A stretch of 64,000 nucleotides of DNA from Candidatus Kaiserbacteria bacterium (GCA_963699165.1 OY969413.1:276562-340561); one strand, 5' to 3'; positions 2,787-36,435 are shown, counted from the stretch's first letter. Translations and numbers: made by a program. The notes: generated by a model not told the origin, from the letters alone.

Positions 2787-3628
2787 GTATTAAGAACGAG
2801 TTGGCACAAGCGTTAATGATTTTAATAAGTAAGTGCGCGGATTTCCGAACAATTCCGGTGAGGAAAATCTGAAGCAGAATTCCCTCACGTATTGCTCGAG
2901 GTTCTCGCTCCAGTGATGATGATACATCCTCCGCACAAAGGTGCGGTATACGCCGAACACGCCTTCGATTTCGGAGGTATGTTCGAACTCGAATTTTGAA
3001 TGAATGTCTCTGCTGTGGGAGACCGGCCATCGCTTGCCGACACCCCGGTATATCGAACCGCCATCGGTCCACAACTCGCTCCCCGGCTTCACTTTGGCAA
3101 AGAGAAAGTCCATCACGTCCGTCTTGTTCGGGAAGCGATTGTGCATGACGGTATAGGCAAGCTTTCTCGTTCCTTTCTGCTTGGCCATCACGAGAGCTGC
3201 GTTCTTGAAATATGCCTCGTCCATCTGCACGATACGCTCGAGAATATGCTCTTCTTGGGGCAAATGCTCACGAAAGGTGGCATACCAGCGGCGTATCGTT
3301 CGTTCAGGCAAATGCGTGAGCTCCATGGCCTGCAAGACGGGTTCTCGTATCGTCCAGCACCAGAGGAGCATCCACCACGTCTGGAGCGGAAGCTTGAGGT
3401 TTGAGAGCCAGGTATGCGAGAGGAGCGAGAACCTTCGGCGGCAGGCAACACACCGGTACCGGTCTTCGTACCGCACAATCCTGCGCGAGCGGCAGAGCGG
3501 GCAAAACACATTCTTTCCGAACAACGTTCGCCGCAAAAACTTTCTAATCTGCACTTCAGACGGAATTTGTTTGAGCGTGTACATAGCTTCCATGATACGG
3601 GAGCTGTGCCAACAGAGTCTGAATACCC
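2787..3628. mobile_element. IS1595-family insertion sequence, about 842 bp. It has imperfect ~27-bp terminal inverted repeats (GGTATT...TTGGCACA) and is flanked by a 9-bp direct duplication GTATTTCAG (2778-2786 and 3629-3637).
   Basis: The transposase has the zinc-ribbon, HTH and DDE_Tnp_IS1595 layout. The duplicated target lies inside the reading frame of the host peptidase gene, codons L-K-Y on both sides. Confidence 0.75.
2790..3593 (-). CDS. IS1595-family DDE transposase. The likely start is MEAMYTL; the ORF track's upstream extension to 3665 lies outside the IS.
   Basis: N-terminal CxxC...CxxC zinc ribbon (CPLCRS...CVACRRRF), then the motifs QMDEAYF, ELWTDGGSIY and a C-terminal HHHWSENLEQYVREFCFRFS typical of IS1595/ISXO2-like transposases. 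Confidence 0.8.
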   Translation of the reverse strand: MEAMYTLKQIPSEVQIRKFLRRTLFGKNVFCPLCRSRRIVRYEDRYRCVACRRRFSLLSHTWLSNLKLPLQTWWMLLWCWTIREPVLQAMELTHLPERTIRRWYATFREHLPQEEHILERIVQMDEAYFKNAALVMAKQKGTRKLAYTVMHNRFPNKTDVMDFLFAKVKPGSELWTDGGSIYRGVGKRWPVSHSRDIHSKFEFEHTSEIEGVFGVYRTFVRRMYHHHWSENLEQYVREFCFRFSSPELFGNPRTYLLKSLTLVPTRS

Positions 3629-3715
3629 GTATTTCAGTACCATTTTTATACTTGCTTGAAAGCAATGTGTGTCGTCGGCGTTATTTAAGAAAAATGGGAC
3701 TTCGTAATTTACCAT
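3629..3715 (-). pseudogene. N-terminal fragment (29 codons) of the IS-disrupted C39-like peptidase gene. It carries the catalytic Cys motif (DDTHCFQASIKMVLKY).
   Basis: MVNYEVPFFLNNADDTHCFQASIKMVLKY is followed directly by the IS right end. It matches the N-terminal Cys motif of peptidase C39-like domains. The fragment is preceded by the second copy of the alaS 5' repeat. Confidence 0.65.
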
Positions 3716-10231: not shown

Positions 10232-11281
10232 GGTTTAAAGAAAGAAATGGGAGGCTGAATTAAGCGCCATCCCGCAGTAATTTGGATATGACTTTGTACC
10301 GGCGGTCGCGCCGCAGACCGTGATGCACGCCTAGTTTCTTCTTTAGTGCAGAGAAGGAACCGTCGAGCGAATTGGTGGTGTTCGGTATGTGTAGTTCCGG
10401 ATATTTTTGATACGTAAAAAGATTCGAGAGGTTCGTTGCAAGCGATCGGTATGCGGCGCGGACATTCTTGTGAGTGAAGTGCCACTTCGTCTTGCCGCTC
10501 TCGAAGGTTGAGACGGTCTTCTCGCTGATGAAATCCTTCCAGCGTTCGTACCACACAGTGAGCGCTGCAGAAAAGGTTGCCTCATCGGTTTTCGTGAGGG
10601 TGTGGACAAGTGCGAGGAGCTCCTTGCCTGCCTCGGTCTTGGGACGGCTCGTGAGATATCGCCCGACGATTTTGATTTGGTGGAACTGACAGATTTGCAC
10701 CGGGATATCCTCAAATACCTTGAGAAATCCTCGTCGTCCGTCGACCACAGCTGCGGTGAAGACCCAGCCGCGTTCCTCAAGAATCTGCCGTGCGTATCGA
10801 TAGTGGACCATGAGCTCGCTCGCGACTTCGTGCCACCAGATGTTCTTCGCGAGCGGCCAGGCGCGGAAGACGCAGACGCCATAATGGCGACCCCAGAAGG
10901 TGGTGTCGGCAATAACGACAGTTGTGTGCGGTTCGGTCTCGGCAATCGGTACACTGACCGTATCAAGTTGTTTGCGTACCCACACATGCGAACGGCCATG
11001 CTTTTTGGCGAGCTGTTTGAGCGTCTGCTTGCCCTCGATATATTCTTCCCAGAGTTCAGTACCGACTCCAGTGTCGCGCCGTGGTGATTGAAATTGAGAT
11101 CCACAATTCAGGCATTTGTATCGTTGCAGAGTATTCCTCTTTCCATTCTTCTTGCTCCGTGCGTCACCGCATTCGGGACAGATTCGGCCACTTTTTTAAG
11201 ACGCATGTTAAATATTTGTTGTTCTAGCTTGTATGTACGCCACCATATCACGAAATCAGCCTCCCAAAAGTTTCTTTAACC
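10232..11281. mobile_element. IS1-family insertion sequence (1050 bp). It has imperfect ~27-bp terminal inverted repeats (GGTT(T)AAAGAAA...GGGAGGCTGA) and an 8-bp target-site duplication GCTTTTTC (10224-10231 and 11283-11290). It lies between the pepO stop and the stop of the HD-domain gene.
   Basis: Inverted repeats at both ends and flanking direct repeats. The encoded protein carries the IS1 InsA zinc finger (CPECG...NGK...QRYKCLNC) fused to an InsB-like DDE region (ADTTFWGRHYG...VVDGRRGF). Confidence 0.75.
10260..10985 (-). CDS. IS1-family transposase (fused InsAB-like). The frame is open upstream to 11195 and includes the zinc-finger region, but no in-frame ATG follows the stops, so this is a possible pseudogene or uses a non-canonical start.
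   Basis: Translation upstream of the track ORF reads KSGRICPECGDARSKKNGKRNTLQRYKCLNCGSQFQ...HVWVRKQLDTV. The track's start is a GTG. The only upstream ATG (11244-11246, after a GGGAGG RBS) is separated from this frame by two in-frame TAA codons. Confidence 0.65.
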   Translation of the reverse strand: MWVRKQLDTVSVPIAETEPHTTVVIADTTFWGRHYGVCVFRAWPLAKNIWWHEVASELMVHYRYARQILEERGWVFTAAVVDGRRGFLKVFEDIPVQICQFHQIKIVGRYLTSRPKTEAGKELLALVHTLTKTDEATFSAALTVWYERWKDFISEKTVSTFESGKTKWHFTHKNVRAAYRSLATNLSNLFTYQKYPELHIPNTTNSLDGSFSALKKKLGVHHGLRRDRRYKVISKLLRDGA

Positions 11282-11857
11282 GGCTTTTTCGCGTGCGTGC
11301 ACTTCTGCAAGACGCTTCGTGAGCCGGTGTTCCGGCAATCGTTTTTGCGCAATGCGCAGCGCTTCGCCGTGATACCACGCATAGTCGGCAGACGGCTGAC
11401 GCCAGCGCGCGAGCAATGACTCGCCTTCCTTTGCATACGCCTCAATCTTGCTTTCGATGTTGTCGATTTTATCCGCAACGGCAATGAGCACCGCATCGTC
11501 GTTCGCCTCTTCAAGACGGCGCAGATAATCCTCTTTTCGCTCCCTCCAGCCAAGCTTCTTTCCGTCGATTTCTTTCAACTCGCTTACCGACTCCACAAGC
11601 GTTGCGACTCGTTCGTTAAAAACGGCGGCGATTTCCTCGCGCATCGTGCCGGTATCTTCAATCGTGTCGTGCAAAAGCGCGGCCGTCACAACATCGTCAT
11701 CGGCGCCACTCTGCCCATCCGAATCCTCGGCGACAAGCAGCGCCACCGAAAAAAAATGTGTGATGTACGGCAACGGCTCCGCCTCGCGCCGCATCTGACC
11801 GTTATGTTTTTTCGCCGCAAATTGAATCGCTTTTTTGATTTGCGGCGTGTGGTTCAT
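11276..11857 (-). CDS. HD-domain phosphohydrolase, RelA/SpoT-type ((p)ppGpp hydrolase-like small alarmone hydrolase).
   Basis: HD motif in the N-terminal region and LLHDTIEDT, the signature of the RelA/SpoT hydrolase domain. The protein is 193 aa. Confidence 0.75.
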   Translation of the reverse strand: MNHTPQIKKAIQFAAKKHNGQMRREAEPLPYITHFFSVALLVAEDSDGQSGADDDVVTAALLHDTIEDTGTMREEIAAVFNERVATLVESVSELKEIDGKKLGWRERKEDYLRRLEEANDDAVLIAVADKIDNIESKIEAYAKEGESLLARWRQPSADYAWYHGEALRIAQKRLPEHRLTKRLAEVHAREKAG

Positions 11858-12617: not shown

Positions 12618-12942
12618 AAAGAACGTGTTTCAGTTTCGAATCCTAGCGTGTTGCGGCGATTATGCAAACCGTTCGCGTATAAAACAACGACCCGCGGCTT
12701 CCTGCGAAGCTCGCGGGTCAGGGTCCGGATTCCAGCTTTAGTTCTTGGCGACATGAGTATTTGGCTGGACGTAGCCGCTCGTTGGGGTGTACTGCTGGTC
12801 GGCTATAGAGAAAGCAACTGCAATTATAAGCAGCGAGAGAACGGCTGTGGCAATGTATTGGCGCATTACTGGATGACTCCTGGGGTGACAAAGAGTGGTC
12901 TGAGTGAAGTATTCAGCATAAATCTGATTTGTCAATTTTGCC

Positions 12943-13874
12943 TGTACGTTAGTATCGGGTTGTTGACACTTTTCGCGTCGACGAGTTCATTGAAAGCGCA
13001 AAAGGCGCGGTACGATTTTGGTGTTCAGACCATTTAATCGTTAGCGCCTCTTGCATGCACAAGAATACCAAATTGTTGCCGTACCAACGGCGTGAGATGT
13101 TCCGCAGATGGGGTATGGGAGCTCAAGCGACCCATTTGGCCCGAGAATACAAAGTCTCCCGAGAAACCGTATACGAGACACTTAAAGATGCCCGACTGAA
13201 CGTCTTCGAGAATCGTTCCTCGATGAATCACCGATATCGCACCATCCTGTACGGGTTCCAAAAGCTTGCTCGCACCGAAAAGCGCGTGGGAGAGAAGCTC
13301 GCCCGCAAAGCCCATCGATTGAACCGATACGAGAAATCGATACCGGGTGAAATGCTGCATCTCGATACCAAGCGCCTGCCGCTCCTGCGAGGAGAAGCCG
13401 CCGCGCAACCGAGAGAATACCTATTTGTCGCCATTGACGACTACTCTCGTACCGCCTTTGCCGATATCTTCCCCGACAAGACCGCATACTCGGCCGCCAT
13501 GTTCCTCGCCGAGAGCAAGCGAGTATTGCCGTTCCCCGTGACCGGCATCTATTCCGACAACGGGAGCGAGTACCGGGGACGACCGGATCATCCGGTGGCG
13601 GCACTCTGCAGGGAAACGGGCATGAGCCAAGCGTTCACGAAAGTGAAGCATCCCTGGACCAATGGAAAAGCGGAGCGATTCATCAAAACCCTCATGACCG
13701 AATGGCACGGGAAGACACGTTCCAATCACATCTCTCGAGCCCATCGCCGACGCTATTTGTATGCGTTTGTGGACTGGTACAACCAGACCCGCATTCACCA
13801 ATCGCTCGGAACAACTCCATTCGGAAGACTCGAGGCGTACCTAGAAAGTGTCAACAACGCGTTGACTTAGTACA
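12943..13874. mobile_element. IS481-family insertion sequence, copy 1 (about 932 bp). It has ~27-bp inverted repeats (TGTAC...GTTGTTGACAC) and a 7-bp target duplication TTTTGCC. Copy 2 at 36436..37367 differs by two SNPs.
   Basis: The two copies are near-identical (A/G at about 13089 is synonymous; one further SNP). Both start with TGTAC, and each has its own flanking direct repeats, a different one per copy. Confidence 0.85.
13055..13870 (+). CDS. IS481-family DDE transposase (rve integrase core), 271 aa.
   Basis: N-terminal HTH (ATHLAREYKVSRETVYE) and a DDE core with LHLDTKRLPLL, DNGSEYRG and HPWTNGKAERFIKTL, the HPxTNGxxER motif of IS481/IS3-type integrases. Confidence 0.9.
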   Translation: MHKNTKLLPYQRREMFRRWGMGAQATHLAREYKVSRETVYETLKDARLNVFENRSSMNHRYRTILYGFQKLARTEKRVGEKLARKAHRLNRYEKSIPGEMLHLDTKRLPLLRGEAAAQPREYLFVAIDDYSRTAFADIFPDKTAYSAAMFLAESKRVLPFPVTGIYSDNGSEYRGRPDHPVAALCRETGMSQAFTKVKHPWTNGKAERFIKTLMTEWHGKTRSNHISRAHRRRYLYAFVDWYNQTRIHQSLGTTPFGRLEAYLESVNNALT

Positions 13875-14753: not shown

Positions 14754-15797
14754 TCAATATTTTGTACGCGTCCAGTACTTTTGGCAGTCCCCGACGGTTA
14801 ATGTACACACAATATACCGCAAGGGGGACACCATGCCGAGCGACTGGTGCGGGCGTTTGGTGTTGTACCAGATCAGCCAGTCGACAAGCTTCAGATTGAA
14901 GGAATGAATATCGTCCCGCAGCAGGCCCCGATTCAGCATGATGAAGTCCTCGGAGACGGTGCGATTGAATCGTTCGACGTGGGCATTCATCTTGGGAGTG
15001 CGGGGGCGGGTGTGAAAGTGCGTGAGCCCGAGTTCGGCACAGGCATCCTCGAAGTGTTTGGCGAACTCGCTCCCGTTGTCGGTCTGCAACTCGTCGATAT
15101 CGAAGGGGCAAACCTCGATGACTCGGCGAAGGAAGTCGTCCGCGCTTCTCGACGAGTGGTTCGTATACGCGCCCGCAAAGGCGAACTTCCGCTCCACATC
15201 CACTGCCGTGAGGACGTACCGCTTCACGCCGTCGATGAAGCGGACGACGGTATCGAGCTCCATGCCGCGCTTGCCGGTGCGGCGAAGCTTGGTACGGCGT
15301 TTCTGCGGTGTTTCCGTGTGATTGCCCGTACGTGCGTGGAACGAGAGCCGGCTCTGCTGCGGGAGCAGACCGCGGTTCTTCAAATCCAGAATGACCCGCC
15401 CAACGTATGACTCCGACACGGAGTGCCCTTCTTCGCGCAGGAGAACGGCAAGCTTTGCTTTCCCAAGCCGGGGATGCGCCTGTCGTTCGCGGATGATGAA
15501 ATCCTCGACCTCGGGCAGAACAGTCCTCCTTCGACGCGCCTTCGGCGCAGTGCTCTTCGGGTCAAGTGCATCAATGCGGCCCTCGTGGGCTTTGAGTTCC
15601 TCCTTCCAGCGATACAAGGTGCGCTCCGAGGTGCCAAAGGCGTCGTATGCGGCCTCCGTCCCGTGCATGTCCCAGAATCCCAATATCTTCACCCGTCTGT
15701 CGACTTCCTTTGGTTTCCGCATATGCCGCAATCGTATCGTCCTTTCCCACATGCTCAACCAGCCCTTCGTACCCCTGAAATTGCTTCTGATGTGCAT
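14754..15797 (-). CDS. DDE transposase/integrase (rve core; IS481-like). Its last three codons read through the IS end into the flank.
   Basis: DNGSEFAKHF and HTRPRTPKMNAHVERFNRTVSEDF motifs, with an N-terminal HTH. The start is chosen inside the IS (MHIRSNF). The C-terminus differs from copy 2 only beyond the IS boundary. Confidence 0.8.
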   Translation of the reverse strand: MHIRSNFRGTKGWLSMWERTIRLRHMRKPKEVDRRVKILGFWDMHGTEAAYDAFGTSERTLYRWKEELKAHEGRIDALDPKSTAPKARRRRTVLPEVEDFIIRERQAHPRLGKAKLAVLLREEGHSVSESYVGRVILDLKNRGLLPQQSRLSFHARTGNHTETPQKRRTKLRRTGKRGMELDTVVRFIDGVKRYVLTAVDVERKFAFAGAYTNHSSRSADDFLRRVIEVCPFDIDELQTDNGSEFAKHFEDACAELGLTHFHTRPRTPKMNAHVERFNRTVSEDFIMLNRGLLRDDIHSFNLKLVDWLIWYNTKRPHQSLGMVSPLRYIVCTLTVGDCQKYWTRTKY

Positions 15798-15842
15798 ATA
15801 TCCTCGGTTATGAGGACTGCCAAATGTATCTGAACTTATGCA
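14763..15842. mobile_element. IS481-like (rve-type) insertion sequence, copy 1 (1080 bp). It has ~30-bp imperfect inverted repeats (TGTACGCG...; conserved core TTTGGCAGTCC) and a 5-bp target duplication TATTT. Copy 2 at 45559..46638 differs by one SNP.
   Basis: A 1080-bp near-identical repeat with TGTAC termini and a flanking direct repeat. The encoded protein has the integrase core. Confidence 0.8.
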
Positions 15843-15862: not shown

Positions 15863-16531
15863 TCAGAGCCACCCTATTGGCTTCTCGGCATGCTCGATAA
15901 GATATGTATTCGTTTTACTAAAGGGCTTGCTTCCAAAAAAACCGTTTGAGGCGGAAAACGGCGACGGATGCGCGGATTCGAGAACCAGATGTTTGCTGCG
16001 GTCGATGTGCGCGCCTTTTGCTTTTGCATAGTTGCCCCACAGTATGAAAACCAAATGTTCGCGTTCTGCAGAAAGCGCGGCAATGACTGCATCGGTGAAT
16101 TGTTCCCAGCCGCGCGATTGGTGCGAGCCGGCGGCGTGGGCGCGTACGGTGAGAGTCGCGTTTAGAAGCAAAACGCCCTGCTCTGCCCATCGTGAGAGGT
16201 CGCCGCTCGTATGCTCGAGCGGCGCGCTCAAGTCATCCTCGATTTCTTTAAAAATATTTTTGAGCGACGGCGGGAGCGTCTGATTTTCTTCGACCGCGAA
16301 GGCAAGACCGTTTGCCTGCCCGTCGCCATGATACGGGTCTTGGCCGAGAATGACGACTTTTACTTTTTCAAACGGGCAAAGGTCGAATGCGCGAAAAATG
16401 TTTTTCGGCGCAGGGTACACTGCGCCGGTTTTGTACTCGTTTTTTACGAACGCGGCGAGTTCGGAAAAATACTGTTTTGCAAATTCGCCCGCGAGCTGCT
16501 GTTGCCACGAGGGTTCGATTTTCACTTCCAT
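15863..16531 (-). CDS. ung: Uracil-DNA glycosylase, family 1.
   Basis: Motifs VILGQDPYHGDGQANGLAF and LLLNATLTV...HQSRGWEQFTD, and the C-terminal HPSPFSASNGFFG. The 438-aa track ORF is an artefactual upstream extension; the true start is MEVKIEPSW at 16531. Confidence 0.9.
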   Translation of the reverse strand: MEVKIEPSWQQQLAGEFAKQYFSELAAFVKNEYKTGAVYPAPKNIFRAFDLCPFEKVKVVILGQDPYHGDGQANGLAFAVEENQTLPPSLKNIFKEIEDDLSAPLEHTSGDLSRWAEQGVLLLNATLTVRAHAAGSHQSRGWEQFTDAVIAALSAEREHLVFILWGNYAKAKGAHIDRSKHLVLESAHPSPFSASNGFFGSKPFSKTNTYLIEHAEKPIGWL

Positions 16532-16535
16532 GGGT

Positions 16536-16850
16536 TTACAAAGCTCCCTCGGCTTCGAGCAGTTCGCGCTTGCGCGCATCGCCGCGGTTGTAGCGGCCGA
16601 GCTCGCCGTTCGCGCGAATAACGCGATGGCATGGCACGGTCGGGTCGAAATTTTTTTTAATGACCGTGCCGACCGCGCGCTGCGCGCGCGGCCTGCCGAC
16701 GGCTTTCGCGATGTCGCCGTAACTTCTTGTCTCCCCTTTCGGGATACGGCGTACGGCAGCCAGAACGCGCTTTGCAAACACGTCGGCAGCCCTCGCGGTT
16801 TTACTGCCATACATGGAAGCGTTTTCCCTCTCGGTTGAATTTGCCTGCAT
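16536..16850 (-). CDS. ogt: Methylated-DNA--protein-cysteine methyltransferase (MGMT/Ogt) DNA-binding/active-site domain protein.
   Basis: PCHRV active-site motif (TVPCHRVIRANGELGRY) in a ~100-aa protein. It lies 4 nt upstream of ung. Confidence 0.85.
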   Translation of the reverse strand: MQANSTERENASMYGSKTARAADVFAKRVLAAVRRIPKGETRSYGDIAKAVGRPRAQRAVGTVIKKNFDPTVPCHRVIRANGELGRYNRGDARKRELLEAEGAL

Positions 16851-16851
16851 A

Positions 16852-17640
16852 TTATTTCATCTTTTTCGCTATCGCGTGCAATTCCTGCAATTTCTTGCCT
16901 GCGTTTTCGCGATAGGGGCAATATTCGCACGATAGTCCCGTCTTCGGAATTTCGTCTGATTCCAAACATGCTCTCAATGCGACGAGCGTGCCGGGAATCC
17001 ATGAATCGTCGCCATCGTAGGCCAAAATCGTAATGTCGAATTCGAGCTTTCCGTCGAACGATTTCTTGTCGTTCAGTCCGTTTGCATACACGAAATACGC
17101 CGTCGGGGACACGGAAAATCCGTTCTTGCGAAACAGCCATTGATACACTTCGACTTGCCGCTTGTATTGGATTTTCCATTCGTCTTCAAGCGTCACTTCT
17201 TTTTTCCCGGCCGTCGCTTTGTAATCAACCACATGCAACTCGCCCTTCGGATTGACCCACACATCGTCGATGCCGCCGCGCACAATCAAATTGTTTTCCG
17301 TATCGTGATATTTCACGCCGCGCCGAAGCGCATCGCGCCATTCTTCGAGTTTTTCATGCTTAAAGGGAATCGCATCTATGCCGTATTTTTCCATGAGCGG
17401 ATGCGCCTCGCCTTTTGCGCGGCGGATGTCGAATTCTTTTTTGAAGAGCTCGTCAACCGCGTTGTTGAGCGTAAACGGCGGCGTGTCCGGTCGCCCGATG
17501 CCATACCGCGCTTCGAGCCAAAAACAGCGCGGGCATTCCAAAAAACGGTCGATTTTCGAACGCGATATCGTATACGGTTCGTCGGACGATGCATTAAATC
17601 GTCCTTTTTCCCATTTCAATTTGTATCCTGCAAACGGCAT
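16852..17640 (-). CDS. Cas4-like PD-(D/E)XK nuclease with a four-cysteine Fe-S cluster signature. There is no CRISPR context.
   Basis: N-terminal ECPRCFW, a core VVDYKATAGK (the D-x-K of PD-(D/E)XK) and a C-terminal CEYCPYREN, which is the Cas4/AddB-type cysteine arrangement. The start is taken at MPFAGYKLKW, 2 nt after the upstream gene's stop. Confidence 0.65.
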   Translation of the reverse strand: MPFAGYKLKWEKGRFNASSDEPYTISRSKIDRFLECPRCFWLEARYGIGRPDTPPFTLNNAVDELFKKEFDIRRAKGEAHPLMEKYGIDAIPFKHEKLEEWRDALRRGVKYHDTENNLIVRGGIDDVWVNPKGELHVVDYKATAGKKEVTLEDEWKIQYKRQVEVYQWLFRKNGFSVSPTAYFVYANGLNDKKSFDGKLEFDITILAYDGDDSWIPGTLVALRACLESDEIPKTGLSCEYCPYRENAGKKLQELHAIAKKMK

Positions 17641-17641
17641 A

Positions 17642-18493
17642 TCAGCGTGTCTCGGGAAGCGAGAATAGCCCATCGGCCTCGGCGAGAATTTCGCCGACGC
17701 GCGCGGGCGAGAGATGCAATACATCGAGCGTGCTTCGGTCGCGCGTGATTTCGTCCACCGCAATCACCTCGTGTTCGATGAGAAGTTTTTTTTCGGCCTG
17801 CGAGAGTTCGGTAAGCGCGGTAATCGGATACACCTTCGAACGAACCATGCGAACGTACAAATTGTCATTCTCGGGATAGCCCCACCCTAGCAACTCCACT
17901 CCGGAACACTCGGCATACGCAATGGCTTCCGTTGTAAATTTCGTGTTTGTAACCAAAATGCCGCGATCAATGGTACAGGTGCTCGATGCCGAATCGCAAT
18001 TAAAAATGTCATCGAATCGGCTTTTTACATACAGTGCCGTCTTCAAATCGGTTTTGTAGCCCGGGTCATTGTGATATTTAAGTTCGGCGGCGAGGTATTC
18101 GTTATTGTCCGGATGCGATGCGTAAAAATCCACTTCGTGCCTTACGCATTTTCCCTGCATAATTTTCCGCGTTTCAACCTTCCATCCTTCGGCGGTATAC
18201 AAATGCGATATGAAGTCCTCAAACGGATGACCGGTCGGGCCGAGATCGAGCATGGCTCGGCGAAGCGCATACCGCGCCGCAACCGGCCGCGCTTCTCTGC
18301 GCAGCATCGAGAATGCGCGCGAATAAATTTCCTTTGAAGATATTCCCGGCACAATCATCTGCGTGATGGATCCTGCGATGCGCTCGGCACTATGCGCGCC
18401 GGCGCCCGCGCGTTCAAGCGAATGCGCAAGCCGCACGGGGTCAAATGTCTCCGTTGTGCCGTCGGCTTTGGTGATGGTCGGCAACGTGCTCAT
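17642..18493 (-). CDS. ATP-cone domain fused to a restriction-endonuclease-fold (Mrr-like) catalytic domain.
   Basis: N-terminal ITKADGTTETFDPVRLAHSLERAGA (ATP-cone), followed by HEVDFYASH...ELKYH...TKFTTEAIAYAECSGVELLG, which resembles the Mrr_cat restriction endonuclease core. The start is at MSTLPTIT. Confidence 0.6.
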   Translation of the reverse strand: MSTLPTITKADGTTETFDPVRLAHSLERAGAGAHSAERIAGSITQMIVPGISSKEIYSRAFSMLRREARPVAARYALRRAMLDLGPTGHPFEDFISHLYTAEGWKVETRKIMQGKCVRHEVDFYASHPDNNEYLAAELKYHNDPGYKTDLKTALYVKSRFDDIFNCDSASSTCTIDRGILVTNTKFTTEAIAYAECSGVELLGWGYPENDNLYVRMVRSKVYPITALTELSQAEKKLLIEHEVIAVDEITRDRSTLDVLHLSPARVGEILAEADGLFSLPETR

Positions 18494-18912
18494 GATGCGG
18501 TAGTTGTCGCGAGCGAGCCGTTTACGGTTGCGGTAATGGGCGTATGCGCGGGTGCGGCTATGGTCGTCGAAAAGGCGACCGTCGTAGGCGCCTGCAGACA
18601 CAAGCCCGTATATTGCGGCATCAGAATTGCGATTTGAATCGTCTGCGTGCTTGAAGATGTGCCGACGAGCGAAGCATGTGCGGAAATGGACGTGCATGCA
18701 TTCGGCGTTACGACGGAGCCGGACAGCGTGTGCGTTCCCCTTCGGAAAATATCATGGACGCTTATGTCAGGGATGGTTGCTTCCTGCGTCGCCCGTGCGG
18801 GCGGGTTCCCGGCATCATGCGTGTGCGGAACCGATAATATAAAACCCGCAACGATAATAATCGCCAAGATAAGGGCGCTAATCCATAGTCGCTTGGTATG
18901 TACGAGTGTCAT
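18490..18912 (-). CDS. Hypothetical membrane-anchored Thr/Ser-rich protein.
   Basis: N-terminal TM helix (LWISALILAIIIVAGFIL) then a T/S/A-rich tail. It has 4-nt overlaps with both neighbouring genes, which suggests translational coupling. Confidence 0.45.
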   Translation of the reverse strand: MTLVHTKRLWISALILAIIIVAGFILSVPHTHDAGNPPARATQEATIPDISVHDIFRRGTHTLSGSVVTPNACTSISAHASLVGTSSSTQTIQIAILMPQYTGLCLQAPTTVAFSTTIAAPAHTPITATVNGSLATTTAS

Positions 18913-19916
18913 GCGCGTATGATACCACCGCCGACGATTTTGTCGGCATGGTAGAAAACAATTGACTGGCCTGGTGCGGCAATTTCCGATAGTGCACTGG
19001 TTGAGAAAAATCTGTCGCCCTCGACACGGCCCGCGATGCGCGGGCCGCGATACCGGTATTGCGCCTCGGCCGTCTCACTTGGCTCAAGGAACCAGTTCGC
19101 GTCGGTAAACCGAATGCACTGCGGCGCATTCGCCGCTTCCGACAGGCGCCCCTTCCCCACCGTGAATTCGTTTTTCGAGACATCCTTTGCAAGAACAAAC
19201 CATGGCCCCGACTCGCGCGCATTTTGGAGCGCGATTCGTTCTCCGATGGTGTGAAGCAAGACGCCATCGTGTTCGCCTACAACCATCCCTTTTTCATCGA
19301 TTGCGCGACCGGTAACAAGCGCATCGCCGAATTCGGCCCGTAGAAATTCTTCAACGGAGACGCTTCCTAGGAAACACACACCCTGGCTGTCTTTCTTTTC
19401 AGCGACCGGCAGATTGAATTTCCTGGCAAGCGCGCGCACGGCGGTCTTCTCATAGTGCCCAACCGGAAAAATCGTTGACTCTAAAATATCTTTTGGCACG
19501 GCCCAGAGAAAATAGCTTTGGTCTTTCTCGCCGCTCCGGTAATGCCCGGTCGCGATGCAGTCCGCTCCGTTCGATTTCGCGAAACGGTAAAAAGCGCCGA
19601 ACTTCAGCTCTTTATTGCACATGATGTCCGGGTTCGGCGTCCGTCCCGCACGATACTCGGCGAGCAGATAGTCGATGACTTCTTTCTTGTACTCCGCGCT
19701 TGCGTCTAGCGTAAGAAACGGGATGCGGAGCCGTGCCGCGACGCGCATCGCGTCGCGGCGATCTGCCGCCCACGTGCACGGCATCCCGGGCGGATACCAG
19801 CCCTTGATAAACACGCCCGTCACGTTCGCGCCCGCACGTAGAAGGAGCGCAGCCGAGACGGCAGAATCAACTCCGCCGGATAATCCAACAAATACGGTCT
19901 TTCCGCGTACATTCAT
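18909..19916 (-). CDS. mnmA: tRNA-specific 2-thiouridylase MnmA.
   Basis: SGGVDS PP-loop, NPDIMCN and ATGHY motifs. Confidence 0.9.
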   Translation of the reverse strand: MNVRGKTVFVGLSGGVDSAVSAALLLRAGANVTGVFIKGWYPPGMPCTWAADRRDAMRVAARLRIPFLTLDASAEYKKEVIDYLLAEYRAGRTPNPDIMCNKELKFGAFYRFAKSNGADCIATGHYRSGEKDQSYFLWAVPKDILESTIFPVGHYEKTAVRALARKFNLPVAEKKDSQGVCFLGSVSVEEFLRAEFGDALVTGRAIDEKGMVVGEHDGVLLHTIGERIALQNARESGPWFVLAKDVSKNEFTVGKGRLSEAANAPQCIRFTDANWFLEPSETAEAQYRYRGPRIAGRVEGDRFFSTSALSEIAAPGQSIVFYHADKIVGGGIIRA

Positions 19917-20886: not shown

Positions 20887-22272
20887 CTAAAGCGGCAGAT
20901 TCGCGGGCGCTTCGCCGGTCGCGGACGAAACGCGCTCGAGGCCCGGCGTATGTATACCGGCCGAAGGTATGTGATACAGAGTGGCGAGTTCTTCGGTGCT
21001 CAAAACCATAATATCATTTCTAGTCAGCCCTTCCGAAAACGGTTCATGGAAAAATTGGCGGCGTCGATATGCCTCGACCATTTTCACCGTATACCGCTTT
21101 TTTAACTTGCTCGAACCGATTTCCCACGGATAATCGTCGAATATCATCAGCCATGCGGTCGCCTTGATGCCATTCCACCCCTCAACGCTGAACGGTTTGA
21201 ACAGGCCAATCATTTGCGCAATCATAGTCGGCTTGAAACTGTCGGGTTTCGCGAGATAAATACAGCGCGCGCCGACATCGAACCCGAGTTTCGATGTGTT
21301 GCGCTCGATTGCTGCCATCTTTTCCGACTCTCCTTTCGTCGGATTTGGGAATCCCGGCATCTCTTTGCCGGTCGTGGGATCGACATACGGCGTTCGGGTA
21401 TCCTTGCGGATTTTTTCAACGATTTCCTTTCCTTCGTCCCGCCATGTGTACGGCTTATTATCCGCGTTGAGTTTATTGTATTTGTGTCCGCTGTGCACTT
21501 GGATGATGAATTGCAGCCAGACATATTCGCCCTTCCCGGCCGAACCGAGAAACTCAGTAATGCTGGCAAGCGGATCAATTTGTTCCGGTTCCTCTTGTAC
21601 CTTGTCAAGACCGAACTCGATATAGGTTTTAATGGGCAGCGGATCTTTTTCGATTTTCCTGTAATCGCAACCCCAAATGCTCCACTCGCCCGGTACCGCC
21701 GAAATGCATCTCGTATAATCAAGTGCTTCGGTAATCTGCACGCCGGGATATTGCGCATACATTTGCGACTCGACAATTCTTCGAAAATTAGCGCGCGTCC
21801 ACACGTAAAAGTGAACCCTCCCTTCGAACGACACCATTTCAAACGACCACCACGGACGCACGGCACCCTTTATCGAGCGGGCATACCAGGTCGATTCGCC
21901 CGGGGAGAGATGGATTGAGGAAAAAAACGCTTCCATGGCGAGCGGCGTCTTCACGAGATTTCTTGGTGGTTTGATTTCGAGAACGATATACGTCTGCGAA
22001 TTTATGAATTCGCTCCGTTTGAGCGTAAGCCATAACGACAATGCTCCATCTGCGAGCAGAAACGGGAGCCAAACCGGAGCGAGATACAGCGCAAGCGAGA
22101 CCGCGGTATCTACCTGATGAAACATGAACATCGTCGATATGAGCAGCAGGAGCATCCCTGCAAAGAAAATAGGCCACGGAGCAAATCGGAAGCCCGTGTT
22201 ACCGGTTATTTTTTTGAAAAAAGCGTCGATTTCTTTCGCAAACGGAAGCATGTTTGGATAGTATATCAACAA
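20887..22272 (-). CDS. Hypothetical integral membrane protein (461 aa): N-terminal TM bundle plus a large soluble domain.
   Basis: Several hydrophobic helices at the N-terminus. No recognisable catalytic motif. Confidence 0.5.
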   Translation of the reverse strand: MLIYYPNMLPFAKEIDAFFKKITGNTGFRFAPWPIFFAGMLLLLISTMFMFHQVDTAVSLALYLAPVWLPFLLADGALSLWLTLKRSEFINSQTYIVLEIKPPRNLVKTPLAMEAFFSSIHLSPGESTWYARSIKGAVRPWWSFEMVSFEGRVHFYVWTRANFRRIVESQMYAQYPGVQITEALDYTRCISAVPGEWSIWGCDYRKIEKDPLPIKTYIEFGLDKVQEEPEQIDPLASITEFLGSAGKGEYVWLQFIIQVHSGHKYNKLNADNKPYTWRDEGKEIVEKIRKDTRTPYVDPTTGKEMPGFPNPTKGESEKMAAIERNTSKLGFDVGARCIYLAKPDSFKPTMIAQMIGLFKPFSVEGWNGIKATAWLMIFDDYPWEIGSSKLKKRYTVKMVEAYRRRQFFHEPFSEGLTRNDIMVLSTEELATLYHIPSAGIHTPGLERVSSATGEAPANLPL

Positions 22273-22311: not shown

Positions 22312-23385
22312 TTACGCCGCCGAGTATCGGCCGTCTTTAAGCCGAGTAAAGTACCGGGGATCGTTGAGGTTCACCAAAATCGTATTGTCTTTCACGAAAC
22401 GCGCGCGCTTCACCTGCTTGATGATTTCTTCCTTTTTGAGCGGACCCGTTTTCTCGAGCGTCTCGCGAATCACATCACGTACGACTCCCGGTTTGTAGCC
22501 CCATTCGGTAAGCGCGTAGAGTCCGCGGCCGACAAGCACGAAGCGCGAATCTTTGATCAGCTCGTTGTGCGTAGTCGCGACGTGCGCCTTCTTTGAAAAA
22601 AGAGTGCCGATTGCCTTCGCGACTTCCGAGAAGTGCATCGGCGCGCCGTTTCGCTTCACCGCGAGATATGCGTAATCGCGAATGCCTTTGATGCGGATGG
22701 CGGCGGCGTTGGTCTTGCCCCATTCCGAAAGCGGATTGCTGCCGATGTGCTTCGAGAGAGAAAGCCAGCGCTTCAAAACCTCCTCGTTCTTGTAGGCGTC
22801 GTTCACCTCTTTCAGCTCTTCCAAAAATCGGTCGAGAAGCTCGCTTTCGGTTACAACCTCGTTGTCCGGCAACGTCGCGTACAGGCGGGAAAGCGCGTCG
22901 TGGATGTTTTTTGCCGTGCCGCGGTCAATGTGCCATCGGGCGACGAAATCATTTGTCTCGCGCTCGCGGAAAAACGCGGAACCGAGCATCAAAAAGAAGC
23001 GGAAGCGGTTGCGGGTCTTCTCATCCTTTCCCAGTGCGGAAAGAAGCGTGTCTTCGGGCACGATTGCGCCGAGCGAATCGATGTATGCCGCAATCTCGTC
23101 AAACGCCGAGCTCGCCTCCTTAAAGGCCTTGCTCGCGCGGATGGCGTCGAGGCCGGCGGCTTCAATTTGCCGGACGCGCTCGCGGGTAATCGACGAGCGG
23201 TCGCCGATTGCTTCGAGCGTCTCGCGTTCTGTTGCGGTGCCTAGACCGAAGCGTCGAACGAGCACCGTGCGGGCGCGTTCCGGTGCAGTTGCGAGAAGTC
23301 GCTTCGCGAGAGCCGAACTATCAAACGTAAACACGGCCGCCTTCAATTCGGCCTTTTGTTTCGCTGTTTTTTTGGCTTTGACCAT
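22312..23385 (-). CDS. Protein with a sigma-70 region 4-like segment and a HARE-HTH-like domain.
   Basis: RRFGLGTATERETLEAIGDRSSITRERVRQIE resembles sigma-70 region 4. The C-terminal MHFSEVAKAIGTLFSKKAHVATTHNELIKDSRFVLVGRGLYALTEWG resembles a HARE-HTH domain. Confidence 0.5.
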   Translation of the reverse strand: MVKAKKTAKQKAELKAAVFTFDSSALAKRLLATAPERARTVLVRRFGLGTATERETLEAIGDRSSITRERVRQIEAAGLDAIRASKAFKEASSAFDEIAAYIDSLGAIVPEDTLLSALGKDEKTRNRFRFFLMLGSAFFRERETNDFVARWHIDRGTAKNIHDALSRLYATLPDNEVVTESELLDRFLEELKEVNDAYKNEEVLKRWLSLSKHIGSNPLSEWGKTNAAAIRIKGIRDYAYLAVKRNGAPMHFSEVAKAIGTLFSKKAHVATTHNELIKDSRFVLVGRGLYALTEWGYKPGVVRDVIRETLEKTGPLKKEEIIKQVKRARFVKDNTILVNLNDPRYFTRLKDGRYSAA

Positions 23386-23432: not shown

Positions 23433-26279
23433 TTATACCACAAGATTTATGATTCTGCCCGCTACATAAACCACCCGATTCGGCTCCTTTCCCGAAAGCG
23501 CCGAAATGACGGCCGGAAGGTCCTTTGCTGCGGCTACTGCATCCATTTCAGAAGCGTCCGGAGCAAGCCGAGCCGTCCCGCGACGTTTCCCGTTGACCTG
23601 AACCACAACTTCCATTTCTTCGGCAACAAGAAGAGACTCGTCGTGCACCGGCCACGAAGCGAGATGTATGGACAACGTCTCGCCCACAAGCTCCCAAAGT
23701 TCATCGGTGATGTGGGGGGCAAACGGCGCAAGCAATCGCAAGAATATTTTCCACTGTTCTTTGCCGATGCTTCCCTGCTTATCGATGGCATTCAGAAGAA
23801 TCATCATCTGGCTCACCGCTGTGTTAAATTTAAATGCCTCTATATCGTTGCCGACTTTGCGAATCGTTTCGTGGAGAATCTGATTGAGCGCGGGAACGTC
23901 GTGTTCCGTAACTCGCTCCTGCGTCTGCCATACGCGTTCAACGAAGCGCGCCGTACCAGCGATGGATGCAGTACTCCACGAGGTCGTGTTCTCGAACGGG
24001 CCCATAAACATCTCATAAATGCGGAAAGCATCGGCCCCATACTCCGCAACCACGTCGTCAGGATTGATGACATTTCCGAACCGCTTGCTCATTTTGCGTC
24101 CGTCCTCGGCCAGAATAAATCCGAGGAACTCAAGTCGGGCAAACGGCTCGGGAGTGCTCACCACGCTAATGTCGTACAGGAATTTGTGCCAAAAACGCGC
24201 ATAGATGAGATGTCGCACCGCGTGGTCGCCGCCGACATACACGTCAACCGGCGCCCAATATTTTTCTTTCTTCGCGGACACGAGTTGCTCCGCATTATGC
24301 GGATCCATAAAGCGCAGGTAATACCACGATGAGCCCGCCCATTGAGGCATCGTGTTGGTCTCGCGTTTTGCAGGACCGCCGCATTTGGGACAGGTCGTGT
24401 TGACCCAATCATCGATAGCCGCAAGCGGCGATTCTCCCGTGCCGGTCGGCTCATACGACTCGACTTCCGGCAGAAGGAGCGGTAAATCTTCGTACGGCAC
24501 GGCAACAACCCCGTCGGTTGGACAATGTATAACCGGAATCGGTTCGCCCCAGTATCGCTGGCGCGAGAAAACCCAATCGCGCAATTTGTAGCGAACAACC
24601 CGCCGGCCGCCGACGGCTTCCGTAATGTCCCACTTAGCGCTTTCACTGTTGCGACCGTCGAAGGAACCCGAATGTATGAGATAGCCGTGACCGGTGAGCG
24701 ATTCTTCCTTATGCAGCAGACGCCACATACCTTTCTGATGCGCGGGAGTTAGCTGCTCCTCCACGTCCTTTTCATCAACCCAATACAACGTGTGCTTTGC
24801 TTGCTCGTCGGCGGGAATGATTCCTTGCTGTGCAGTGCTGTCAATTTCGGCGAGCAATGCATGCGCGTGCGCGCAACGATTTTCTTTTTTGTGTGAAGCG
24901 CAATAGCGCGCCGCGGTAATCCAGCGGAGTTTGCGCACGATGCGAACGCCCTCAAGCGCCGCTTCTTCGCGTATTTCGGCAAGCGCCGCGTCTTCCGGTG
25001 TTTGTCCGGCCTCAATGCCGCCCATAATCGCGGTTGTTATTCCCTCAAGTGTGCCATGCCACTTCAAAAGAGCGTACTTCCCCGTTGAATTGTCGCGAAG
25101 GTGAACGACGACGGTATCGCGTTTCACCTCGGTGAACTCGGGCCGCGGCGGATTAAGAGTGTCACTCTCGCAAGGAACAACAACCTGCCGTATCGGGAGT
25201 TTAAACTTCTCGGCAAATTCAAAATCGCGCTCGTCATGCGCCGGTACGGCCATCACCGCGCCGGTGCCATATGAGGCCAGAACGTAATCGGCTATGTAAA
25301 CCGGAATTCCCTCCTTAGTGGCAGGGTTGATGGCTGACACCCCTTCAAGAATTACTCCCGTTTTCTCTTTTCCTTCCGCACTGCGATCGATTTCCGTTTT
25401 AAGCGCCACGGACTTTGCGTATTCGCGTACCGCATCCTTGTTTTTTACCAAGCCGTATTCAATCAGTTTGCTGACGAGCGGATGCTCCGGCGCAAGAACA
25501 AGATATGTGGCGCCAAAAATCGTGTCGGGTCGCGTTGTGAAAACAGTGGCCTTGTCGGCTATATCTGTAAAAGCGAAATCGATTTCCGCGCCTTCAGAGC
25601 GGCCTATCCAATTCCGTTGGGCTTCCTTAATGTGTTCCGGCCAATCGAGCAAGTCGAGGTCGGCCAGCATCCTGTCTGCGTAATCGGTAATTTTTAGCAC
25701 CCACTGCGGAAGATTCTTTTTGACGACCGGCGTTCCGCATCGCTCGCAAACGGCGCCGTCGAGGTCTTCGTTCGCAAGGCCGGTCATGCACGACGGACAC
25801 CAGTTAATCGGCTCGTTGGATTGAAATGCGAGACCTTGCTCGAGCATTTTGAGGAAAATCCACTGCGTCCAGTGATAGTACGCCGGGTCAGTCGTATTGA
25901 TTTCGCGCGACCAATCATAATCGAAGCCGATGTGCGCTAGCTGGGCTTTGAAGTTTGCGATGTTGTCCTCAACGGCTTTGCGCGGATGCGTCTTGTTTTT
26001 GAGAGCGTAATTTTCTGCGGGCAAACCGAAGGCATCCCATCCCATGGGATGCAGCACCGAAAAGCCGCGCATGCGCATGTGGCGCGAATAGATATCCGTC
26101 GCAATGTATCCTTTCGGATGTCCGACATGCAACCCTTCGCCGGACGGATATGGGAACATATCGAGCACGTATTTTTTTTCTTTGTCAGGGTCGTCAGACG
26201 TGCGGTAGGTATCATTTAGCTTCCAGCGCTCCTGCCATTTGCGCTCTATATCACCGTGCGAGAAAGGGTCTTTAGCCAT
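23433..26279 (-). CDS. leuS: Leucine--tRNA ligase (948 aa; long form with insertions).
   Basis: N-terminal MAKDPFSHGDIERKWQERW...YVLDMFPYPSGEGLHVGHPKGY (HIGH motif) and a KMSKS region (GRKMSKRFGNVI). Confidence 0.95.
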   Translation of the reverse strand: MAKDPFSHGDIERKWQERWKLNDTYRTSDDPDKEKKYVLDMFPYPSGEGLHVGHPKGYIATDIYSRHMRMRGFSVLHPMGWDAFGLPAENYALKNKTHPRKAVEDNIANFKAQLAHIGFDYDWSREINTTDPAYYHWTQWIFLKMLEQGLAFQSNEPINWCPSCMTGLANEDLDGAVCERCGTPVVKKNLPQWVLKITDYADRMLADLDLLDWPEHIKEAQRNWIGRSEGAEIDFAFTDIADKATVFTTRPDTIFGATYLVLAPEHPLVSKLIEYGLVKNKDAVREYAKSVALKTEIDRSAEGKEKTGVILEGVSAINPATKEGIPVYIADYVLASYGTGAVMAVPAHDERDFEFAEKFKLPIRQVVVPCESDTLNPPRPEFTEVKRDTVVVHLRDNSTGKYALLKWHGTLEGITTAIMGGIEAGQTPEDAALAEIREEAALEGVRIVRKLRWITAARYCASHKKENRCAHAHALLAEIDSTAQQGIIPADEQAKHTLYWVDEKDVEEQLTPAHQKGMWRLLHKEESLTGHGYLIHSGSFDGRNSESAKWDITEAVGGRRVVRYKLRDWVFSRQRYWGEPIPVIHCPTDGVVAVPYEDLPLLLPEVESYEPTGTGESPLAAIDDWVNTTCPKCGGPAKRETNTMPQWAGSSWYYLRFMDPHNAEQLVSAKKEKYWAPVDVYVGGDHAVRHLIYARFWHKFLYDISVVSTPEPFARLEFLGFILAEDGRKMSKRFGNVINPDDVVAEYGADAFRIYEMFMGPFENTTSWSTASIAGTARFVERVWQTQERVTEHDVPALNQILHETIRKVGNDIEAFKFNTAVSQMMILLNAIDKQGSIGKEQWKIFLRLLAPFAPHITDELWELVGETLSIHLASWPVHDESLLVAEEMEVVVQVNGKRRGTARLAPDASEMDAVAAAKDLPAVISALSGKEPNRVVYVAGRIINLVV

Positions 26280-36384: not shown

Positions 36385-36435
36385 AGGAATCTACTTAGAT
36401 TGTAGCATTTCAGGATTCGTCTGTCAAGCGCTCAC

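What the first reader, a model, noticed from the sequence alone, without database searches (positions are those of the whole stretch)
15863..18912. Tightly packed nuclease / DNA-repair operon: ATP-cone-Mrr fusion, Cas4-like Fe-S nuclease, Ogt, Ung
Five co-directional minus-strand genes are separated by -4 to +4 nt: a small TM protein, the ATP-cone plus Mrr-like REase-fold protein, the Cas4-like 4-Cys PD-(D/E)XK nuclease, the MGMT domain and UDG. They lie directly downstream of mnmA. Uracil and alkyl-lesion repair enzymes are rarely fused into one transcription unit with two nucleases, one of which carries a nucleotide-sensing domain. This could be a DNA-surveillance/repair module or a defence-like system that couples damage or uracil processing to a regulated nuclease. 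An IS element flanks it on one side (15842).
Basis: partly seen in the sequence, partly recalled or inferred. Interest (0 to 1): 0.7.

Follow-up and report, generated by a model that had tools for sequence, protein, structure and literature searches.

The report
Conserved DNA-repair gene string in Paceibacteria
The five tightly packed genes are real and correctly identified, but they are part of a long, vertically inherited housekeeping gene string in a group of tiny groundwater bacteria, not a mobile defence system. The one little-studied piece is a nuclease fused to an ATP-sensing domain.

Summary
Five minus-strand genes follow mnmA with gaps of -4, -4, +1, +1 and +4 nt: a small TM protein, an ATP-cone + AF1548/Mrr-type PD-(D/E)XK nuclease ("ACMrr"), a RecB/Cas4-like nuclease ("Cas4L"), a short MGMT and Ung. 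An IS481-family copy ends at 15842.

All domain calls are supported. In 80 related species genomes (Paceibacteria/Kaiserbacteria-like Patescibacteria) the order is kept, but as part of a longer string: leuS–sigma–DUF8128–mltG–mnmA–TM–ACMrr–Cas4L–(MGMT)–ung–…–alaS.

ACMrr diverges in step with mnmA and mltG, which points to vertical inheritance. In most relatives an unrelated DUF7282 gene separates it from Cas4L. In nine relatives an opposite-strand Mur ligase does. No PADLOC model matched beyond weak Cas4 hits, there is no CRISPR array, and pattern scans of viral contigs found no viral relatives.

The defence reading is therefore not supported. Cas4L–MGMT–Ung is a tight repair sub-operon. ACMrr belongs to a widespread, uncharacterised family of about 280 aa. 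In Bacteroidota this family sits next to a β-CASP nuclease, Usp and nucleotide-salvage genes, which hints at an adenine-nucleotide-gated nuclease. Cas4L alone shows discordant, class-switching evolution.

Interest is moderate.

The parts
18490..18912 (-). Small membrane-anchored protein (140 aa) with an N-terminal TM helix. It overlaps mnmA and the next gene by 4 nt each.
   Evidence: ORF and start codon. No Pfam, NCBIfam or PADLOC family. Present in 52 of 62 relatives with enough upstream sequence, at only 30-57% identity. Unrelated to the DUF7282 protein found downstream of ACMrr in relatives.
17642..18493 (-). ACMrr (283 aa). Residues ~6-80 form the ATP-cone, ~88-205 an AF1548/Mrr-type PD-(D/E)XK nuclease core, and ~210-280 a helical HhH-like AF1548-like_C domain.
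16852..17640 (-). Cas4L (262 aa): a RecB-family PD-(D/E)XK nuclease of Pfam PDDEXK_1, of the solo-Cas4-like kind, with four invariant Cys arranged CxxC…CxxC.
   Evidence: PDDEXK_1 E=7e-13. TIGR00372 cas4 scores only 30.1 bits against a cut-off of 65. Invariant residues: C36, C39, C238, C241, D125/D126, D139-Y-K141 and Q162…Y166. AF2 pLDDT 89. Best structural matches are the AdnA nuclease domain, RecE, Cas4 SSO0001, MGME1, lambda exonuclease and EXO5.
16536..16850 (-). Short O6-alkylguanine-DNA alkyltransferase: the C-terminal MGMT domain only, with the active-site motif PCHR at residue 73.
   Evidence: DNA_binding_1 E=2e-30. TIGR00589 ogt 86 bits against a cut-off of 46. Motif. Present in 30 of 49 relatives.
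15863..16531 (-). Family-1 uracil-DNA glycosylase (Ung), 222 aa, with the GQDPYH and HPSPFS motifs.
   Evidence: NCBIfam ung equivalogs up to 321.9 bits. Motifs. Present in 48 of 49 relatives at 59-79% identity.
18909..19916 (-). mnmA (tRNA 2-thiouridylase), the upstream neighbour in the same conserved string.
   Evidence: Pfam. Present upstream in 62 of 62 relatives.
14763..15842 (-). IS481-family insertion sequence lying 20 nt downstream of ung. It breaks the ancestral link to HD_4/peptidase/alaS.
   Evidence: 99.9% identical second copy at 45559-46638. transpos_IS481 E=3e-54. Relatives have HD_4 or M16/M3 peptidases and alaS after ung. In the window HD_4 is at 11276-11857 and alaS at 258-2162.

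Best explanation
This is a stretch of the core chromosome of a Paceibacteria (Minisyncoccia/Kaiserbacteria-like Patescibacteria) bacterium. It is not a mobile or defence module. It forms the downstream end of a long co-directional housekeeping run: leuS – sigma factor – DUF8128 – mltG – mnmA – TM – ACMrr – Cas4L – MGMT – ung.

The last three genes form a real DNA-repair sub-operon.
- Ung excises uracil.
- The short MGMT removes O6-alkyl groups by suicide transfer to its PCHR cysteine.
- Cas4L is a RecB-type, metal-cluster-stapled nuclease. It most likely supplies 5'-end or flap processing or end resection (inferred).

ACMrr is a separately evolving, strongly conserved enzyme. It has an intact PD-(D/E)XK active site (D122, E137, K139) and a C-terminal HhH-like DNA-binding domain. 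An N-terminal ATP-cone presumably switches its activity or oligomeric state on ATP/dATP binding, as ATP-cones do in RNR and NrdR (inferred).

In this genome the DUF7282 gene that separates ACMrr from Cas4L in most relatives is absent. That absence produces the very compact look.
For: Domain identities.

Synteny in 80 species genomes, conditional on ACMrr being present:
- mnmA 62/62
- DUF8128 59/62
- mltG 55/62
- Cas4L 47/49
- Ung 48/49
- MGMT 30/49

All of these genes are co-directional. The string extends to leuS and sigma upstream and to alaS downstream.

Vertical inheritance: pairwise identities of ACMrr correlate with mnmA (rho 0.72), mltG (0.69), DUF8128 (0.64) and UDG (0.59). Mean identity of ACMrr is 0.71, at or above that of mnmA (0.69).

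The tight sub-block: the median Cas4L–MGMT gap is 22 nt and the median MGMT–UDG gap is 12 nt. The median ACMrr–Cas4L gap is 529 nt.

Genes inserted between ACMrr and Cas4L:
- DUF7282
- opposite-strand Mur ligase and Asn synthase
- MgtC and HAD, in a relative with 44% identity

No defence signal:
- PADLOC gives only weak Cas4 hits.
- There is no CRISPR-like array.
- Pattern scans of viral contigs found no relatives.
- GC content matches the rest of the window.

Against: - Co-transcription is not shown. The promoter and terminator scans are at chance level.
- No biochemical role is known for the AF1548 family or for this Cas4L subfamily.
- Nearly universal linkage of ACMrr with Cas4L within the clade (47/49) could still reflect a functional tie.
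- Cas4L does not co-diverge with its neighbours (rho 0.16-0.34). It falls into four classes, which is unusual for a plain housekeeping gene.
- The ATP-cone has Ala where RNR and NrdR have the phosphate-binding Arg (K-A-D-G instead of K-R-D-G). The canonical motif is recalled from my own knowledge. Nucleotide binding is therefore unproven.
Confidence: 0.6

Rival explanations
1. Nucleotide-economy module. ACMrr is an adenine-nucleotide-gated nuclease that works with a 5'-processing exonuclease partner (Cas4L here). Together they break down DNA or RNA for nucleotide salvage or energy-stress survival in an organism that cannot make nucleotides de novo. Ung and MGMT are neighbours only.
For: The ATP-cone is a nucleotide-pool sensor in RNR and NrdR (established knowledge; fold match).

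In a Bacteroidota-centred subfamily of the same ~280-aa architecture:
- 26 of 80 loci have an MBL/β-CASP nuclease within 5 kb downstream, mostly within about 340 nt.
- 22 have a Usp gene upstream.
- 8 have a thymidine/AMP-phosphorylase-type gene.
- 7 have a PRPP-synthetase-like gene.

In Roseivirga-like loci the order is ACMrr – β-CASP – PYNP – PRS – 229-aa protein – PPK2, with DeoC and PFK upstream. The β-CASP adjacency recurs in Saprospiraceae.

Two unrelated exonuclease-type partners in two phyla (Cas4L and β-CASP) suggest a pairing of endonuclease with exonuclease. CPR bacteria lack nucleotide synthesis (abstract of 10.64898/2026.07.13.738296).
Against: - Other members of the family have unrelated neighbours: FtsW/RuvB, SecDF/V-ATPase, DciA/MreB and an ABC transporter.
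- No salvage genes lie next to ACMrr in the Paceibacteria loci examined.
- An unregulated cytoplasmic DNase would be dangerous to the cell.
- The Bacteroidota association could itself be mere clade synteny.
- In 9 Paceibacteria species ACMrr and Cas4L are separated by an opposite-strand gene.
Confidence: 0.2
2. One reading: a defence-like or surveillance system in which uracil or alkyl-lesion processing feeds a regulated restriction-type nuclease (for example against uracil-containing or modified phage DNA).
For: - The nuclease core is of the Mrr / type IV restriction kind. Structurally it resembles ligand-gated defence nucleases such as Can2, Card1, Cdn1 and NucC.
- Cas4L shows class-switching evolution independent of its neighbours, a pattern seen in conflict genes.
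- IS elements are nearby.
Against: - ACMrr is as conserved as mnmA and co-diverges with it.
- The chromosomal position is fixed between housekeeping genes in 80 species.
- No PADLOC model matches beyond generic Cas4.
- MGMT is dispensable in about 40% of relatives.
- Unrelated and opposite-strand genes interrupt the block.
- Distant homologues lack these partners.
- The IS is a recent insertion, with a 99.9% identical copy elsewhere in the window.
Confidence: 0.07
3. ACMrr is a structure-specific repair or recombination endonuclease (of the Hjc, NucS or XPF kind: a nuclease core plus an HhH domain). It acts with Cas4L on branched or mismatched DNA, so that all four downstream genes form one repair pathway.
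For: - It lies next to repair genes in one clade.
Against: - These fold matches are generic for PD-(D/E)XK cores. The only close match is AF1548, which is uncharacterised.
- Linkage to repair genes is confined to one clade.
- An ATP-cone is not known in any repair nuclease (my own knowledge; the literature searches found none).
Confidence: 0.13

Closest known systems
AF1548 of Archaeoglobus fulgidus (PDB 1Y88; Pfam Mrr_cat + AF1548-like_C)
   Different: AF1548 has no ATP-cone. In the HMMER alignment it lacks the segment holding C166 and C173. Its function is unknown, so it gives no mechanism.
NrdR and ribonucleotide-reductase ATP-cones
   Different: The effector here is a nuclease, not a Zn-ribbon DNA binder or a reductase. 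The motif is K-A-D-G rather than K-R-D-G.
Solo-Cas4 / PDDEXK_1 nucleases of small-genome bacteria and archaea (Hudaiberdiev et al. 2017, PMC5704561); nuclease domains of AdnA/AddB; Cas4 SSO0001
   Same: RecB-type motifs (D, D-x-K, Q…Y). Cysteines join the N- and C-terminal helices. It is a stand-alone gene in a CPR genome lacking CRISPR context. Best structural hits are AdnA, RecE and SSO0001.
   Different: It scores below the Cas4 equivalog cut-off (30 against 65 bits). The Cys pattern is CxxC…CxxC, not C…CxxCx5C (canonical pattern recalled from my own knowledge). There is no cas1/cas2 and it is not fused to a helicase.
Ogt/MGMT and E. coli-type Ung
   Same: Catalytic motifs and family scores are met.
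   Different: The MGMT consists of the C-terminal domain only (104 aa).
Mrr type IV restriction enzymes and ligand-gated PD-(D/E)XK defence nucleases (Can2, Card1, NucC)
   Same: Same catalytic fold. The architecture of sensor domain plus nuclease resembles the CARF/SAVED–nuclease effectors.
   Different: There is no Mrr_N DNA-recognition domain. The gene behaves as a vertically inherited core gene, and there is no signalling partner and no defence-island context.

Membership tests
ATP-cone domain (PF03477) | Profile match above the curated cut-off | tested here: met
   27.6 bits against a cut-off of 25.8, residues 6-79.
ATP-cone domain (PF03477) | Four-helix/β-hairpin fold superposable on the RNR and NrdR cones | tested here: met
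ATP-cone domain (PF03477) | Binds ATP/dATP (conserved K-R-D-G phosphate-binding motif) | tested here: inconclusive
   K9 and G12 are invariant family-wide and F17 is near-invariant. E15 and F17 are invariant within the clade. The Arg is replaced by Ala. Binding itself cannot be tested with these tools.
AF1548-like nuclease (Mrr_cat + AF1548-like_C) | Sequence and fold similarity over the nuclease and C-terminal domains | tested here: met
AF1548-like nuclease (Mrr_cat + AF1548-like_C) | Intact PD-(D/E)XK catalytic residues | tested here: met
   E92, E120, D122, E137 and K139 are invariant in 44 representatives.
Mrr-type (type IV) restriction endonuclease | N-terminal Mrr_N winged-helix DNA-recognition domain | tested here: not met
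   The N-terminus is an ATP-cone. There is no Mrr_N hit.
Mrr-type (type IV) restriction endonuclease | Defence-gene behaviour: patchy distribution in variable islands | tested here: not met
   Fixed locus in 80 species. Divergence is correlated with mnmA and mltG.
CRISPR-associated Cas4 | Score at or above the equivalog cut-off (TIGR00372) | tested here: not met
   30.1 bits against a cut-off of 65.
CRISPR-associated Cas4 | Adjacent to cas1/cas2 or a CRISPR array | tested here: not met
   No array-like repeats in the window. The neighbours are ACMrr and MGMT.
CRISPR-associated Cas4 | Four Cys ligating an Fe-S cluster (C…CxxCx5C) | tested here: inconclusive
   Four invariant Cys are present, but as C36xxC39…C238xxC241. 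The metal could be Fe-S or Zn. This cannot be decided here.
PD-(D/E)XK RecB-family nuclease (PDDEXK_1) | Profile match plus the D, (D/E)xK and QxxxY motifs | tested here: met
   49.5 bits against a cut-off of 22. D125/D126, D139-Y-K141 and Q162…Y166 are invariant.
O6-alkylguanine-DNA alkyltransferase (Ogt/MGMT) | DNA_binding_1 domain with the PCHR active-site cysteine | tested here: met
   104.7 bits. PCHR at residue 73.
Family-1 uracil-DNA glycosylase | Equivalog score and the GQDPYH / HPSP(L/F)S motifs | tested here: met
   321.9 bits against a cut-off of 162. Motifs at residues 63 and 188.
Known anti-phage defence systems (PADLOC-DB v2) | Any component matching a defence-system model set | tested here: not met
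   Only weak generic Cas4 hits for Cas4L. There are no hits for TM, ACMrr, MGMT or Ung.
Operon (single transcription unit) | Co-transcription of the five genes | not testable with these tools
   The overlaps and 1-4 nt gaps suggest it. The promoter and terminator scans are at chance level. RNA data are needed.

The most novel reading that the evidence does not exclude
The ATP-cone–AF1548 nuclease family may be an adenine-nucleotide-gated nuclease. The family is about 280 aa long, with more than 1,000 clusters at 50% identity, and is found in Patescibacteria, Bacteroidota and Altiarchaeota. On this reading it pairs with a lineage-specific 5'-processing nuclease (Cas4L in Paceibacteria, β-CASP in Bacteroidota). 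The pair would turn nucleic acid into salvageable nucleotides when the ATP/dATP pool falls. In nucleotide-auxotrophic CPR bacteria this would be a core survival function.
Probability: 0.2. Interest if true: 0.65.

Novelty: new member of a known kind. Interest (0 to 1): 0.35.

Why it matters
If this reading is right, the cluster is ordinary genome maintenance in an under-studied phylum, and it should not be counted as a new defence system.

Its value lies in two leads.
- It exposes a strongly conserved, biochemically untouched enzyme family: ATP-cone + PD-(D/E)XK + HhH-like domain. The domain logic predicts a nuclease switched by ATP/dATP, which is directly testable in vitro. Cultured Bacteroidota such as Roseivirga carry it.
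- It gives solo-Cas4-like nucleases of CPR bacteria a concrete repair context next to MGMT and Ung. The 2017 Cas4 survey (PMC5704561) left that role open.

Tried and rejected
- PADLOC scan of all five proteins: only weak Cas4 hits.
- Promoter and terminator scan of 14.5-27.5 kb: counts at chance level, so it says nothing about operon structure.
- Single-sequence PDB search with Cas4L: nothing real.
- Profile of the ATP-cone segment against PDB sequences: top hits were designed helical repeats (spurious). Real ATP-cones (class III RNR, NrdR, NrdA) appeared only at E 0.008-1. The ATP-cone call therefore rests on Pfam and the fold match.
- Pattern scans of viral contigs for ACMrr and Cas4L: no relatives.
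- Literature searches for ATP-cone with restriction endonuclease/Patescibacteria, with Mrr/nuclease and with anti-phage, and for AF1548: no functional study found.
- Literature search for Patescibacteria with RecBCD/AddAB: nothing on which end-resection enzymes these bacteria have.
- TM protein compared with the DUF7282 protein: unrelated.
- I considered that the four clade-invariant Cys of ACMrr mark a metal site. I could not check their proximity because model coordinates are not exposed.
Full report
**What is in the sequence**

On the minus strand, mnmA (19916-18909) is followed by five genes:
- a 140-aa protein with one N-terminal TM helix (18912-18490)
- a 283-aa protein here called ACMrr (18493-17642)
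- a 262-aa protein here called Cas4L (17640-16852)
- a 104-aa MGMT (16850-16536)
- a 222-aa Ung (16531-15863)

The distances between stop and next start are -4, -4, +1, +1 and +4 nt. The NCBI record of the same organism (a Minisyncoccia MAG, GCA_049279115.1) carries identical gene calls. Its contig ends just past ung, where the window carries the IS copy. An IS481-family element occupies 14763-15842, with a 99.9% identical copy at 45559-46638. The observation, including the IS boundary at 15842, is therefore confirmed.

**Identity of the parts**

All domain calls pass the curated cut-offs: ATP-cone and Mrr_cat on ACMrr, PDDEXK_1 on Cas4L, DNA_binding_1 on MGMT and UDG on Ung.

Ung matches the NCBIfam equivalogs (321.9 bits) and has the GQDPYH and HPSPFS motifs. 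MGMT is the C-terminal domain alone, with PCHR at residue 73.

Cas4L has the RecB-type motifs (D125/D126, D139-Y-K141, Q162…Y166). It has four invariant cysteines arranged C36xxC39…C238xxC241. It scores below the Cas4 equivalog cut-off (30 against 65 bits). Its AF2 model (pLDDT 89) best matches the AdnA nuclease domain, RecE, Cas4 SSO0001, MGME1, lambda exonuclease and EXO5.

ACMrr consists of three domains:
- a PD-(D/E)XK core
- a helical C-terminal domain

**Comparative context within the clade**

ACMrr has more than 1,500 homologues (clusters at 90% identity). The 120 best listed are about 72-79% identical, and those that carry a name are labelled Patescibacteria, Paceibacteria or Kaiserbacteria.

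In 80 species-representative genomes the order DUF8128–mltG–mnmA–TM–ACMrr–Cas4L–(MGMT)–Ung is kept on one strand. Where enough flank exists, the counts are:
- mnmA 62/62
- DUF8128 59/62
- mltG 55/62
- TM 52/62
- Cas4L 47/49
- Ung 48/49
- MGMT 30/49

Other contigs show that the string continues to leuS and a sigma factor upstream, and to HD_4 or peptidases and alaS downstream. In the window, alaS (258-2162) and HD_4 (11276-11857) are still present. They are now separated from ung by IS copies and other genes.

The tight spacing also extends upstream: +4 and +9 nt for DUF8128/mltG/mnmA. The linkage, however, is that of a long housekeeping string.

**Is ACMrr functionally tied to the repair genes?**

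Within the string, Cas4L–MGMT–Ung is the tight unit, with median gaps of 22 and 12 nt. The median ACMrr–Cas4L gap is 529 nt. In most relatives it holds a DUF7282 membrane protein.

In nine species it holds a Mur ligase on the opposite strand, with or without asparagine synthase. That rules out obligate co-transcription. A relative with 44% identity has an 80-aa gene, MgtC and HAD interspersed, and no Ung.

Only four of the 80 relatives show the fully compact four-gene form seen in the window. It reflects absence of the DUF7282 gene.

**Mode of inheritance**

On 43 loci carrying all six genes compared (DUF8128, mltG, mnmA, ACMrr, Cas4L, UDG), pairwise identities of ACMrr correlate with those of mnmA (rho 0.72), mltG (0.69), DUF8128 (0.64) and UDG (0.59). 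Its mean identity (0.71) is at or above that of mnmA (0.69).

Several further results argue against a defence island:
- GC content matches the surroundings.
- PADLOC hits are limited to weak Cas4 matches.
- There is no CRISPR-like array.
- Pattern scans of viral contigs found no relatives.

Cas4L is the exception. It correlates poorly with every neighbour (rho 0.16-0.34). It falls into four classes, about 79% identical within a class and 52-63% between classes. These classes cut across the ACMrr phylogeny. This points to in-situ replacement of that one gene, and I cannot explain it.

**The wider ACMrr family**

A full scan of 1.84 billion representatives found 1,052 clusters with E ≤ 0.001 and 384 with E ≤ 1e-30. 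Nearly all of the 150 listed are about 275-290 aa and match over most of their length. The fusion is therefore old and widespread.

Named members include Altiarchaeota, Nealsonbacteria and cultured Bacteroidota such as Roseivirga and Roseihalotalea. They are annotated only as "ATPase", "restriction endonuclease" or "ATP cone domain-containing protein".

Distant members do not sit beside Cas4L, MGMT or Ung. Their neighbours include FtsW/RuvB, SecDF/V-ATPase, DciA/MreB and an ABC transporter.

In a Bacteroidota-centred sample of 80 metagenome loci:
- 26 have an MBL/β-CASP nuclease within 5 kb downstream, mostly within about 340 nt.
- 22 have a Usp gene upstream.
- 16 have a P-type ATPase.
- 8 have a thymidine/AMP-phosphorylase-type gene.
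- 7 have a PRPP-synthetase-like gene.

This is a nucleic-acid-turnover or stress context. It fits what an ATP-cone would sense, and it supplies the most novel reading that the evidence does not exclude.

**Verdict**

The best reading (confidence about 0.6) has three parts:
- The region is a core, vertically inherited genome-maintenance segment.
- Cas4L–MGMT–Ung form a repair sub-operon.
- ACMrr is an independently conserved, probably nucleotide-regulated nuclease of unknown substrate.

The defence reading is unlikely (about 0.07). A nucleotide-economy role for ACMrr (about 0.2) and a structure-specific repair role (about 0.13) remain open.

The searchable literature holds no study of AF1548 or of an ATP-cone nuclease. 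It does record that solo-Cas4 genes are common and vertically inherited in CPR genomes, with unknown repair or defence roles (PMC5704561). I therefore rate this a new member of a known kind, of moderate interest.

Noticed in passing
window 16852-17640 (Cas4L); loci L001-L081: Cas4L falls into four sequence classes (~79% identity within a class, 52-63% between). The classes do not follow the phylogeny of the flanking genes. For example, L075 is 56% identical to the window in ACMrr but 75% in Cas4L, whereas L002 is 76% in ACMrr and 58% in Cas4L. This suggests in-situ replacement of this single gene.
   Followed up: partly
L091-L093, L095, L097-L176: In Bacteroidota-like genomes the ACMrr homologue lies next to an MBL/β-CASP nuclease (26 of 80 loci), a Usp gene (22), a P-type ATPase (16), and PYNP and PRPP-synthetase-like genes (8 and 7). 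This is a stress or nucleotide-salvage cluster.
   Followed up: partly
between window 17640 and 17642; L003:8867-9343 in relatives: Most relatives carry a ~158-aa membrane-anchored DUF7282 gene between ACMrr and Cas4L. It is absent in the window, where only 1 nt separates the two genes.
   Followed up: yes
window 23433-26279 (-): The leucyl-tRNA synthetase carries an inserted NUDIX domain (residues 388-515). The same insertion is recorded for the homologue in the related locus L088 (and, weakly, on L081, the same organism's NCBI record).
   Followed up: no
window 12942-13874 and 36435-37367; 14763-15842 and 45559-46638; 2790-3665: At least three IS types occur in 64 kb: a 933-bp rve-family IS in two copies (99.9% identical), the 1080-bp IS481-family IS in two copies, and an IS1595-type transposase. 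The public short-read contig of this organism ends just past ung, where the window carries the IS481-family copy.
   Followed up: partly
window 58636-59079: A 148-nt unit is repeated in tandem (two copies at 99% identity, a third at 60%). It runs into the first of two adjacent tRNA-Pro genes (58983-59053 and 59070-59141). The unit contains a tRNA-Pro-like end.
   Followed up: no
window 20887-22272 and 22312-23385 (-): A DUF8128 protein and a sigma-70-region-4 protein with a HARE-HTH domain are invariably part of the same conserved string upstream of mltG and mnmA.
   Followed up: no
window 17642-18493, residues C116, C166, C173, C196: Four cysteines of ACMrr are invariant within the Paceibacteria clade, but only two are near-invariant family-wide. 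AF1548 lacks the segment that holds the other two. This may be a clade-specific metal site.
   Followed up: partly
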